From the sequence record OZ370878.1: DNA of 40,608 nucleotides; one strand, 5' to 3'. A program made the translations under genes and the position numbers. The notes under the pieces are model-generated. The model did no database searches. It had not been told where the DNA came from and saw only the letters and a list, made by a program, of their open reading frames with translations. Shown in pieces: positions 16,401-17,620 of the stretch (positions are counted from its first letter, which is position 1; each line of letters opens with the position of its first letter). The DNA comes from a phage.

Positions 16401-16453
16401 ACTAGTGCCACCTATGGTATATCTCCTTCTTAAAGTTAAACAAAATTATTTTA
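16401..16453 (-). promoter_or_regulatory. Engineered translation initiation region for GFP1-10: duplicated gene-10 leader with AAGGAG Shine-Dalgarno, spacer, SpeI site
   Basis: Minus-strand sequence AATAATTTTGTTTAACTTTAAGAAGGAGATATACCATAGGTGGCACTAGT ATG. Confidence 0.85.
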
Positions 16454-17563
16454 TTATGTAATCCCAGCAGCATTTACGTACTCATGAAGGACCATGTGGT
16501 CACGAGAATTCGGATCCCCGAGCATCACACCTGACTGGAATACGACAGCTCCTGCAGCTTCTGGGCGAAGACCACCGTGGCCCATTGCGTACTTAGCGAT
16601 AATCTGGTCCGCTTGGAAGTTAGCACGGCGAGCGCGCTCCAGAGCCAAGTCACGCAGCTTAACAGTACCTACCGCGGAGCGGTGCATGAACAGGCCGATA
16701 ACGTTGTCCTTAGCAACCTTGACATTACCCTCACCTTTATTGGCAGGGAAGACGTGCTTCTGACCAGTAGTGCCCTCACGAGCGGTACCAGCACCACCAG
16801 CGGTGAGGTGCGGAACTTCTACAACCTCAAAGCCCATAACGTTGCGGATAGAACCCTTCTCAGGGTCAATCAGAGCAGCGTAGTTTGCTGCGTTCGGCAT
16901 CAGTGCTGCCAGAATCGCAGAGTAGCTATCTGGGTCACAGTAGAACACACGGTCAGCAGCCGGAACATAGTTCTTGGTCAGAGCCGCACGAGCCTTAGTC
17001 AGAGCCGCAATAATCTCCTTACCCAGCGCAACTTGGTCGGTAAGTGCGGCCTTGTTCTGAGTGGTCTCAATTACGGTAGCAGTACCTAAGCCCTCGATGT
17101 TCTCATTATATTTGCTTTCCACGTTACACAGACCGGCAATCTCAGCCAGAACCGCACCATCCGCAGCCATCGCCAGAGATTCACCCAACTGAGAGGTATA
17201 CTCAGAGCGAACGTCGTAGTGGTTCATCGCGTCCTCAATATCATAAATCAGAACGTCAGCCGTCAGGAGACCGTCAATGGTGATTACCTTCTCGGTGTGT
17301 TTGATGTCCTTACGTTTATCGTCGAGGTTCTCGCCCGGAGCCAGATACGCTGCCTGAGTGCGACCCAGAACAGGGAACTGAGCGGATTTACCGCTGGAGA
17401 TGGAACGTACCATGTGGCGAGAAGTGGTCACGGAGGTACGAGCGAACGCAGTCAGGACTTCACCGCCAAATACCTTCAAGAACAACGCCAGTTTATCTCC
17501 AGCAGCAACTACACCTTTACCTTGGTTAGTACCCATTTGCTGTCCACCAGTCATGCTAGCCAT
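16454..17563 (-). CDS. 10: T7 major capsid protein gp10 (residues 1-348, read-through form) fused to GFP11 tag
   Basis: 369-aa ORF MASMTGGQQMG...AAGAVVFQSGVMLG-DPNS-RDHMVLHEYVNAAGIT then TAATAA. Confidence 0.97.
   Translation of the reverse strand: MASMTGGQQMGTNQGKGVVAAGDKLALFLKVFGGEVLTAFARTSVTTSRHMVRSISSGKSAQFPVLGRTQAAYLAPGENLDDKRKDIKHTEKVITIDGLLTADVLIYDIEDAMNHYDVRSEYTSQLGESLAMAADGAVLAEIAGLCNVESKYNENIEGLGTATVIETTQNKAALTDQVALGKEIIAALTKARAALTKNYVPAADRVFYCDPDSYSAILAALMPNAANYAALIDPEKGSIRNVMGFEVVEVPHLTAGGAGTAREGTTGQKHVFPANKGEGNVKVAKDNVIGLFMHRSAVGTVKLRDLALERARRANFQADQIIAKYAMGHGGLRPEAAGAVVFQSGVMLGDPNSRDHMVLHEYVNAAGIT
16457..16504 (-). other. GFP11: GFP11 (M3) tag coding segment, 16 codons RDHMVLHEYVNAAGIT
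   Basis: C-terminal 16 aa of the gp10 fusion match the GFP strand-11 complementation peptide. Confidence 0.95.
16505..16516 (-). other. Cloning scar GGATCCGAATTC (BamHI/EcoRI) encoding DPNS linker
   Basis: Adjacent restriction sites directly after gp10 codon 348. Confidence 0.85.
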
Positions 17564-17620
17564 ATGTATATCTCCTTCTTAAAGTTAAACAAAATTATTT
17601 CTAGAGGGAAACCGTTGTGG
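17564..17620 (-). promoter_or_regulatory. Gene 10 leader and ribosome binding site
   Basis: GGGAGACCACAACGGTTTCCCTCTAGAAATAATTTTGTTTAACTTTAAGAAGGAGATATACAT ATG. Confidence 0.9.

What the first reader, a model, noticed from the sequence alone, without database searches (positions are those of the whole stretch)
16417..17600. 35-bp direct repeat of the gene-10 leader flanks the capsid fusion gene
GTATATCTCCTTCTTAAAGTTAAACAAAATTATTT occurs at 16417..16451 and 17566..17600 (plus-strand coordinates), 1149 bp apart. T7 recombines efficiently between short repeats, so this is a potential instability site. Recombination would delete gene 10 and should be counter-selected, but it could drive rearrangements during passage or on a gp10-complementing host.
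Basis: partly seen in the sequence, partly recalled or inferred. Interest (0 to 1): 0.35.

Follow-up and report, generated by a model that had tools for sequence, protein, structure and literature searches.

The report
Reused ribosome-binding site in engineered T7
The 35-bp repeat is real, but it is only the strong T7 gene-10 ribosome-binding leader used twice on purpose in a published split-GFP T7 phage: once natively before the capsid gene and once to translate the added GFP1-10 gene. It is an ordinary design by-product with a small, untested recombination risk.

Summary
An exact 35-bp direct repeat lies at 16417-16451 and 17566-17600, 1149 bp apart, with none expected by chance. It is the longest exact internal repeat in the genome.

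The window is the reverse complement of an engineered T7 genome. On the minus strand it reads: phi10 promoter, native gene-10 leader (copy A), gene 10 codons 1-348 with a T7Select-style linker and the GFP11 tag, TAATAA, a second copy of the leader (copy B), GFP1-10 (214 aa), the Tphi terminator, gene 11. With gp17 S541R and a wild-type backbone, this matches "T7-Split-S*" of Levrier et al. 2025 (PMC12808745; ENA OZ370880). [quoted passage not shown]

Actual instability is not shown.
- The assembled sequence keeps both copies.
- A sibling phage from the same laboratory (PP384396.1) carries a 78-nt repeat around gene 10.
- Wild-type T7 already has 23-30-bp exact promoter repeats around essential genes.

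Verdict: already known, low interest.

Two side observations: copy B is followed by ATA rather than ATG at the canonical start position, and a 75-bp deletion fuses promoters phi1.1A and phi1.1B.

The parts
17657..18580 (-). T7 gene 9 (scaffolding protein), upstream neighbour
   Evidence: ORF of 307 aa. Aligns to V01146 gene 9.
17621..17643 (-). T7 class III promoter phi10 (TAATACGACTCACTATAGGGAGA), +1 G at 17626
   Evidence: Read. Matches the annotated phi10 of V01146 and MZ318361. +1 located. Member of the promoter repeat family.
17601..17626 (-). 5' end of the phi10 transcript (GGGAGACCACAACGGTTTCCCTCTAG, ending in the XbaI site), unique to copy A's context
   Evidence: Read. Identical to wild-type T7.
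17566..17600 (-). Repeat copy A: native gene-10 leader (AAATAATTTTGTTTAACTTTAAGAAGGAGATATAC), holding TTAACTTTA and the Shine-Dalgarno AAGGAG. The gene 10 ATG lies 8 nt after the SD.
   Evidence: SD/anti-SD duplex -8.8 kcal/mol.
16454..17563 (-). Capsid fusion gene: gp10 residues 1-348 in the T7Select-style recoded 10B form, linker GDPNS (BamHI/EcoRI), GFP11 tag, stop
   Evidence: ORF of 369 aa. Its 3' end matches the T7Select-like MZ318361 up to GAATTC and differs from wild type by recoding.
16457..16504 (-). GFP11 tag RDHMVLHEYVNAAGIT (strand 11 of GFP, split-GFP variant)
   Evidence: Translation. Aligns to GFP residues about 215-230 (RDHMVLLEFVTAAGIT) in PDB chains.
16417..16451 (-). Repeat copy B: second, inserted copy of the gene-10 leader/RBS in the intercistronic gap. 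It starts at the last base of the second stop codon (TAA TAA, 16456-16451).
   Evidence: [quoted passage not shown] The same leader drives mCherry in sibling PP384396.1.
16401..16416 (-). Spacer CATAGGTGGCACTAGT. ATA (16415-16413) sits where the sibling construct has ATG. An SD-like UAGGUGG lies about 8 nt before the GFP1-10 ATG. A SpeI site is present.
   Evidence: Read. Sibling has GATATACC|ATGG. Duplex energy -7.5 kcal/mol for UAGGUGG against -8.8 for the g10 SD; the g10 SD is 22 nt from the ATG.
15756..16400 (-). GFP1-10 detector fragment (214 aa, ends ...DPNEK), followed by TAATAA
   Evidence: ORF. Residues 1-214 match superfolder-type GFP chains (E = 1e-140 to 1e-146) and stop exactly before strand 11.
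15710..15745 (-). Tphi transcription terminator, ending the bicistronic phi10 transcript
   Evidence: Terminator-like hairpin of 15 pairs plus a T run. Aligns to the annotated Tphi of V01146.
15097..15687 (-). T7 gene 11 (tail tubular protein A), downstream neighbour
   Evidence: ORF of 196 aa. Aligns to V01146 gene 11.

Best explanation
The repeat is a design by-product of an engineered, published T7 phage, most probably T7-Split-S* of Levrier et al. 2025.

Shown:
- Copy A is the native gene-10 5' leader.
- Copy B is the same 35 nt, placed after the stop codons of a gene 10-GFP11 capsid fusion and ahead of an added GFP1-10 gene.
- There is no promoter or terminator between the two genes, so one phi10-to-Tphi transcript carries both cistrons.

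Reported by the authors, not tested here: GFP1-10 complements the GFP11 tags on the capsid protein and makes capsids fluorescent.

Inferred: two identical 35-bp segments in direct orientation 1149 bp apart are a substrate for T7's annealing- and replication-slippage-type recombination.
- The deletion product (39,329 bp) lacks gene 10. It can survive only by complementation, from co-infecting intact genomes or from a gp10-expressing host.
- The reciprocal duplication (41,627 bp, +1,690 bp over wild type) would be viable only if it can still be packaged.
- Both should therefore stay rare, and the construct should be stable at the consensus level.
For: - Exact repeat, none expected by chance.
- Anatomy on the minus strand read directly.
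- GFP1-10 identity and GFP11 identity.
- The insert replaces wild-type positions 24014-24154, and the backbone is otherwise wild-type-like T7.
- T7Select-style recoded 10B end and BamHI/EcoRI linker.
- gp17 S541R. The gene-17 tip is 100% identical to the PHEIGES rfaC clones PP384396, PP384400, PP384407 and PP384408.
- The paper describes exactly this architecture, the S541R fibre, nanopore assemblies and accession OZ370880.
- No T7 promoter copy lies between 15756 and 17566. The only strong terminator is Tphi at 15745-15710.
- The same laboratory's T7_compile uses the same leader (plus promoter) for mCherry, giving a 78-nt repeat around gene 10.
- Predicted junctions and product sizes.
Against: - I could not fetch OZ370880 or the paper's Supplementary Data, so identity with T7-Split-S* rests on matching features, not on sequence comparison.
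- The figure legend says GFP11 is fused to the N-terminus of gp10B. In the window it is C-terminal.
- Copy B does not have a start codon at the canonical distance: ATA sits there and the ORF's ATG is 22 nt from the SD. How much the copied SD itself drives GFP1-10 translation is uncertain.
- No read-level data were available, so neither stability nor instability is shown.
Confidence: 0.9

Rival explanations
1. Active instability hotspot. The 35-bp repeat generates gene-10 deletions or duplications often enough to matter in practice. Defective genomes would then accumulate during high-MOI amplification or on gp10-complementing hosts.
For: - Direct orientation, exact 35 bp, and the longest internal repeat.
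- The T7 literature on deletion between direct repeats exists, seen here as citations only.
- This genome has a 75-bp deletion across a 17-bp promoter identity that wild type, MZ318361 and PP384400 lack.
- The published experiments use MOI 100-300 and litre-scale lysates, conditions where complementation of defective genomes is possible.
Against: - The deletion removes the only capsid gene, so it cannot spread on its own.
- The assembled sequence retains both copies with an intact gene between them.
- A sibling with a 78-nt repeat around gene 10 was plaque-isolated and sequence-confirmed.
- Wild-type T7 carries a 30-bp exact repeat around genes 10-12 without known trouble.
- A 1149-bp (3%) shorter genome has no obvious replicative advantage.
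- The phi1.1A/B deletion may equally have arisen by PCR template switching during PHEIGES fragment amplification.
Confidence: 0.15
2. Assembly or sequencing artefact: the second copy is not physically present and was created by misassembly of long reads.
For: The contig does carry an assembly artefact elsewhere: 290 identical bases at both ends, from reading through the concatemer junction and terminal repeat.
Against: - Copy B is embedded between two unique synthetic segments, the GFP11 stop codons and the SpeI linker/GFP1-10.
- It is needed to give GFP1-10 any ribosome-binding region, and the authors describe it.
- A 35-bp repeat is far too short to confuse long-read assembly.
Confidence: 0.01
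3. Natural duplication: the repeat arose by spontaneous duplication or recombination in a natural T7-like phage.
For: None beyond the sequence identity of the two copies.
Against: - The intervening and following sequences contain GFP fragments, restriction-site linkers and a T7Select-type recoded 10B end.
- No natural T7 record in the phage collection covers the insert; the best coverage of the locus is 68%.
Confidence: 0.01

Closest known systems
T7-Split-S* (Levrier et al., Nat Commun 2025, PMC12808745; ENA OZ370880)
   Same: T7 wild-type-derived backbone; gp17 S541R; GFP11 fused to gp10B; gfp1-10 downstream under an RBS; long-read assembly.
   Different: The paper's legend says an N-terminal fusion, whereas the window has a C-terminal fusion. 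The window also has ATA at the canonical start position after copy B and a phi1.1A/B promoter fusion, neither mentioned in the main text.
PHEIGES T7-mCherry / T7_compile (PP384396.1; PMC10933291)
   Same: Same laboratory lineage, with an identical gene-17 tip. A foreign reporter sits between gene 10 and Tphi and is driven by the same g10 leader, giving a direct repeat that brackets gene 10.
   Different: There the cassette brings its own T7 promoter, so the repeat is 78 nt (one mismatch) and 1235 bp apart. Gene 10 is wild-type 10A/10B, and the leader is followed directly by ATG (CCATGG).
T7 gene-10 leader as used in pET-type expression vectors (established knowledge: Olins et al. 1988; not read here)
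   Same: Identical sequence AATAATTTTGTTTAACTTTAAGAAGGAGATATAC, with TTAACTTTA and AAGGAG. The CC after GATATA is the NcoI-type vector form also seen in PP384396.1.
   Different: In the window, copy B lacks an ATG at the 7-8 nt spacing. The ORF starts 22 nt after the SD, behind a weaker SD-like AGGTGG.
T7Select capsid-display module (represented here by the T7Select-like record MZ318361.1)
   Same: Recoded end of gene 10 giving only the 10B form to residue 348, followed by GGGGATCCGAATTC.
   Different: The backbone keeps genes 0.3-0.7, 3.8 and 17.5, which MZ318361 lacks. Only the recoded 3' end of gene 10 is shared.
Direct-repeat deletion substrates in T7 (Pierce & Masker 1989; Pierce, Kong & Masker 1991; Kong & Masker 1994; citations seen)
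   Same: Two identical short sequences in direct orientation within one T7 genome.
   Different: Those assays bracket a dispensable insert, so the deletion is selectable. Here the bracketed DNA is the essential capsid gene, the repeat is longer (35 bp) and the distance much larger (1149 bp). No deletion has been observed.
Native T7 promoter repeats
   Same: Exact direct repeats of 23-30 bp scattered through the genome and bracketing essential genes, for example phi13/phi10 (30 bp, 4985 bp apart).
   Different: These are natural, functional as promoters and slightly shorter. The engineered repeat is an RBS.

Membership tests
T7 gene-10 leader / pET-type translation initiation region | Sequence identity to the native leader upstream of T7 gene 10 | tested here: met
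   Copy B is 35/35 identical to copy A, which is itself identical to wild-type T7 upstream of gene 10.
T7 gene-10 leader / pET-type translation initiation region | Contains the Shine-Dalgarno AAGGAG and the upstream TTAACTTTA element | tested here: met
   Both are read in both copies. Anti-SD duplex -8.8 kcal/mol for each.
T7 gene-10 leader / pET-type translation initiation region | Start codon about 7-9 nt downstream of the SD | tested here: not met
   Met for copy A (8 nt). For copy B the codon at that position is ATA, and the first in-frame ATG is 22 nt from the SD. The sibling construct has ATG there.
T7 gene-10 leader / pET-type translation initiation region | Actually enhances translation of the downstream gene | not testable with these tools
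   Needs expression measurements. The paper reports fluorescence from the construct.
Self-complementing split GFP (GFP1-10 plus GFP11) | Detector fragment comprising strands 1-10 and ending before strand 11 | tested here: met
   The 214-aa ORF aligns to residues 1-214 of superfolder-type GFP chains and stops at ...DPNEK.
Self-complementing split GFP (GFP1-10 plus GFP11) | 16-residue strand-11 tag on the partner protein | tested here: met
   RDHMVLHEYVNAAGIT at the C-terminus of the gp10 fusion aligns to GFP strand 11.
Self-complementing split GFP (GFP1-10 plus GFP11) | Fluorescence upon complementation | not testable with these tools
   Reported by the authors for T7-Split-S*.
T7Select-type capsid display | Gene 10 recoded to the 10B form through residue 348, followed by the BamHI/EcoRI cloning site | tested here: met
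   Identical to MZ318361 up to GAATTC. Differs from wild type by the recoded codons 337-348.
T7Select-type capsid display | T7Select vector backbone with its early-region and other deletions | tested here: not met
   The window retains the regions that MZ318361 lacks: window 37720-39877, 29015-29367 and 3363-3571.
Repeat-mediated deletion substrate in T7 | Two exact copies in direct orientation on one genome | tested here: met
Repeat-mediated deletion substrate in T7 | Deletion or duplication junctions actually observed | not testable with these tools
   Needs raw reads or PCR. The assembled sequence shows the intact arrangement.
Repeat-mediated deletion substrate in T7 | Deletion product viable, so that it can accumulate | tested here: not met
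   The predicted product lacks the whole gene 10 ORF. That gene 10 is essential is established knowledge.

The most novel reading that the evidence does not exclude
The repeat might continually seed a minority of gene-10-deleted genomes that still express GFP1-10. These would be packaged in trans, behave like defective interfering particles in the litre-scale lysates and the MOI 100-300 infections used with this phage, and bias titres or fluorescence read-outs. A related, less likely reading is that the ATA at the canonical start after copy B is an adaptive mutation, selected to lower GFP1-10 output from a very strong RBS on the most abundant late transcript.
Probability: 0.12. Interest if true: 0.3.

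Novelty: already known. Interest (0 to 1): 0.08.

Why it matters
The practical point is small. Reusing the native gene-10 leader next to gene 10 creates a homology that could, in principle, excise the capsid gene. Anyone propagating this phage at high MOI or on gp10-supplying hosts could remove the risk by recoding the second RBS. It reveals no new biology. The repeat, the split-GFP cassette and the phage are published engineering, and natural T7 already tolerates repeats of similar length.

Tried and rejected
- Exact-sequence look-ups of the gp10-GFP11 fusion and of GFP1-10 in public assemblies: neither is on record.
- BLAST of the GFP1-10 cassette against plasmids, to see what normally follows the leader: only generic GFP hits starting at the ATG, so uninformative about ATA versus ATG.
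- Exact-pattern scans of IMG/VR for the phi1.1A/B fusion junction and for the copy-B/linker junction: no matches.
- Rfam scan of 15000-18800: nothing.
- Primary papers on T7 direct-repeat deletion (PMC196806, PMC328481) are not held. Secondary sources gave no numbers, so I quote no frequencies.
- Supplementary files of PMC12808745 are not held, so the designed sequence could not be compared.
- A text search for an MGGTS-GFP1-10 N-terminus found nothing. The idea that ATA derives from an ATG-GGT-GGC-ACT-AGT (MGGTS) leader therefore stays a guess.
- Rejected readings: natural duplication and misassembly, because of the synthetic unique flanks and the published design. My initial reading that the phi1.1A/B deletion is shared with T7Select-like MZ318361 was wrong; that record keeps both promoters.

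Full report
**Observation.** The 35-mer GTATATCTCCTTCTTAAAGTTAAACAAAATTATTT is present exactly twice, at 16417-16451 and 17566-17600 on the + strand, 1149 bp apart. No further copy appears even with 3 mismatches allowed, and 100 dinucleotide-preserving shuffles gave zero matches. Two repeat scans found it independently. The flanking bases differ on both sides, so 35 bp is the full extent. Setting aside the overlap of the contig ends, it is the longest exact direct repeat in the genome. The next longest are T7 promoter copies of 30 bp (phi13/phi10, 12636/17621), 28 bp and 27 bp.

**What the window is.** The whole window aligns, in reverse complement, to bacteriophage T7 (V01146) at about 99.9% identity. 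The contig is circularly permuted. Its two ends share 290 identical bases that run through the concatemer junction and the 160-bp terminal repeat. The unique length is therefore 40,318 bp, and a virion genome would be 40,478 bp, which is 541 bp more than wild type. Two structural differences from wild type account for this:
- a replacement at the end of gene 10, where wild-type 24014-24154 is replaced by window 16515-15761;
- a 75-bp deletion between promoters phi1.1A and phi1.1B.

**Anatomy of the locus on the minus strand, the T7 sense strand.**
- Gene 9, 18580-17657.
- Promoter phi10, 17643-17621, with +1 at 17626.
- The native 5' leader, with copy A at 17600-17566.
- Gene 10, starting 2 nt later (17563). 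It runs through residue 348 in the recoded T7Select-style 10B form, then GDPNS (BamHI/EcoRI), then RDHMVLHEYVNAAGIT, then TAA TAA (ORF 17563-16454).
- Copy B of the leader, 16451-16417, starting at the last base of the second stop codon.
- A 16-nt spacer, CATAGGTGGCACTAGT.
- A 214-aa ORF, 16400-15756.
- TAATAA and the Tphi hairpin, 15745-15710.
- Gene 11, 15687-15097.

The 214-aa protein is GFP residues 1-214 of the superfolder type and ends just before strand 11. The 16-residue tag aligns to GFP strand 11. Together these are the GFP1-10/GFP11 split-GFP pair. The 3' end of gene 10 is identical to the T7Select-like record MZ318361 up to GAATTC and differs from wild type by the known recoding. 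The backbone keeps the regions that T7Select-type genomes lack. Only that recoded end is shared with MZ318361. No T7 promoter copy and no terminator lie between the two cistrons, so both are carried on one phi10-to-Tphi transcript. Rfam finds nothing in the region.

**Provenance.** A full-text search found Levrier et al., "A synthetic cell phage cycle" (PMC12808745). It describes T7-Split-S* as built from T7 wild type by PHEIGES. [quoted passage not shown] The genome was sequenced by nanopore and deposited as OZ370880. The window fits this description:
- it has gp17 S541R at 3669;
- its gene-17 tip is 100% identical to four PHEIGES clones grown on E. coli rfaC, PP384396, PP384400, PP384407 and PP384408.

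I could not retrieve OZ370880 or the supplementary design, so the identification rests on features. One mismatch with the text: the legend says N-terminal fusion, whereas the sequence shows a C-terminal one.

**What the repeat is.** Copy A is the natural gene-10 leader. Copy B is the same leader reused as the translation-initiation region of the added GFP1-10 cistron. The same laboratory's T7_compile (PP384396.1) uses this leader, together with a T7 promoter, in front of mCherry at the same site. That gives a 78-nt, 99% identical direct repeat that brackets gene 10 at a spacing of 1235 bp. Such a repeat is therefore a routine consequence of this design style, not a peculiarity of this genome.

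**A detail of copy B.** In PP384396.1 the leader ends GATATACC and is followed at once by ATG. In the window the same position reads ATA (16415-16413). That codon is in frame with the GFP1-10 ATG five codons downstream. The strong SD (AAGGAG, -8.8 kcal/mol against the 16S 3' end) therefore lies 22 nt from the ORF's first ATG. A weaker SD-like UAGGUGG (-7.5 kcal/mol) lies about 8 nt upstream of it. I cannot tell whether ATA is designed, a mutation or a consensus error. Searches for comparable cassettes gave nothing useful. Copy B thus is the gene-10 leader by sequence, but it fails the spacing criterion of that element. How much it drives GFP1-10 translation is open.

**Recombination hazard.**
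- A crossover anywhere in the 35 bp gives one product: phi10, leader, CATAGGTGGCACTAGT, ATG of GFP1-10. It lacks the entire gene 10-GFP11 ORF and is 39,329 bp long.
- The reciprocal product duplicates the capsid fusion gene and is 41,627 bp, +1,690 bp over wild type.

That T7 deletes DNA between short direct repeats is established (Studier et al. 1979; Pierce & Masker 1989; Pierce, Kong & Masker 1991; Kong & Masker 1994). I found these only as citations and could not read them, so I give no frequencies.

There is circumstantial support within this genome. Promoters phi1.1A and phi1.1B are fused precisely across their 17-bp identity AATACGACTCACTATAG, removing 75 bp. V01146, MZ318361, PP384400 and the 40 T7 records listed for that search keep both promoters. 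That deletion could, however, equally have arisen by PCR template switching during fragment amplification.

**Why the hazard is minor.**
- The deletion removes the only capsid gene, so it can persist only by complementation.
- The assembled sequence keeps both copies and an intact gene between them.
- The sibling with a 78-nt repeat was isolated and sequence-confirmed.
- Wild-type T7 already has a 30-bp exact repeat around essential genes 10-12 and many 23-28-bp promoter repeats.

No read-level data were available, so actual junction frequencies are unknown. The test is to count junction reads in PRJEB104191, or to run PCR across the locus after passage, especially at high MOI or on a gp10-supplying host.

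**Verdict.** The mechanism and its consequence are correctly reasoned, but instability is not shown, and this finding does not name the repeat's real role: the designed RBS of GFP1-10 in a published split-GFP T7. It is already known and of low interest.

Noticed in passing
window 16401-16416 (ATA at 16415-16413), minus strand: After copy B the canonical start position holds ATA instead of ATG; the sibling PP384396.1 has GATATACC|ATGG. ATA is in frame with the GFP1-10 ATG 15 nt downstream. The strong g10 SD is thus 22 nt from the ATG, while an SD-like UAGGUGG lies about 8 nt upstream. Design, mutation or consensus error is undetermined.
   Followed up: partly
window 34607-34623 (T7 wild-type 5848-5923): A 75-bp deletion fuses promoters phi1.1A and phi1.1B exactly across their 17-bp identity AATACGACTCACTATAG. 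Wild-type V01146, MZ318361 and PP384400 keep both promoters, as do the 40 T7 records listed for that search. The junction is absent from IMG/VR. It is a repeat-mediated deletion, arisen either in vivo or by PCR.
   Followed up: partly
window 1-290 and 40319-40608: The contig ends are 290 identical bases. The contig is circularly permuted and reads through the T7 concatemer junction, with the 160-bp terminal repeat at 40296-40455 and part of it again at 1-137. This is an assembly artefact, not a 290-bp terminal repeat.
   Followed up: yes
window 3669 and 3663 (gene 17): gp17 S541R plus a silent change two codons later. The tip is identical to PHEIGES rfaC-adapted clones PP384396, PP384400, PP384407 and PP384408. 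This is the host-range mutation named in PMC12808745.
   Followed up: yes
window 39359, 37552, 35994, 19545, 18141, 17901, 13488, 11506, 6596: Scattered non-synonymous differences from V01146: gene 0.3 A58V, 0.7 R295W, gene 1 M431V, gene 8 C249Y, gene 9 I147T and N227S, gene 12 L529P, gene 15 A29S, gene 16 G909S. None is shared with MZ318361. They could be PCR-introduced, adaptive or nanopore consensus errors.
   Followed up: no
L005 (PP384396.1) 758-835 and 1993-2070: The sibling engineered phage T7_compile carries a 78-nt, 99% identical direct repeat (phi10 promoter plus leader) bracketing gene 10, 1235 bp apart. This is a larger version of the same design by-product.
   Followed up: yes
PMC12808745, Fig. 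2E legend, versus window 16457-16504: The paper's legend says gfp11 is fused to the N-terminus of gp10B. In the sequence the tag is at the C-terminus, after residue 348 and GDPNS.
   Followed up: yes
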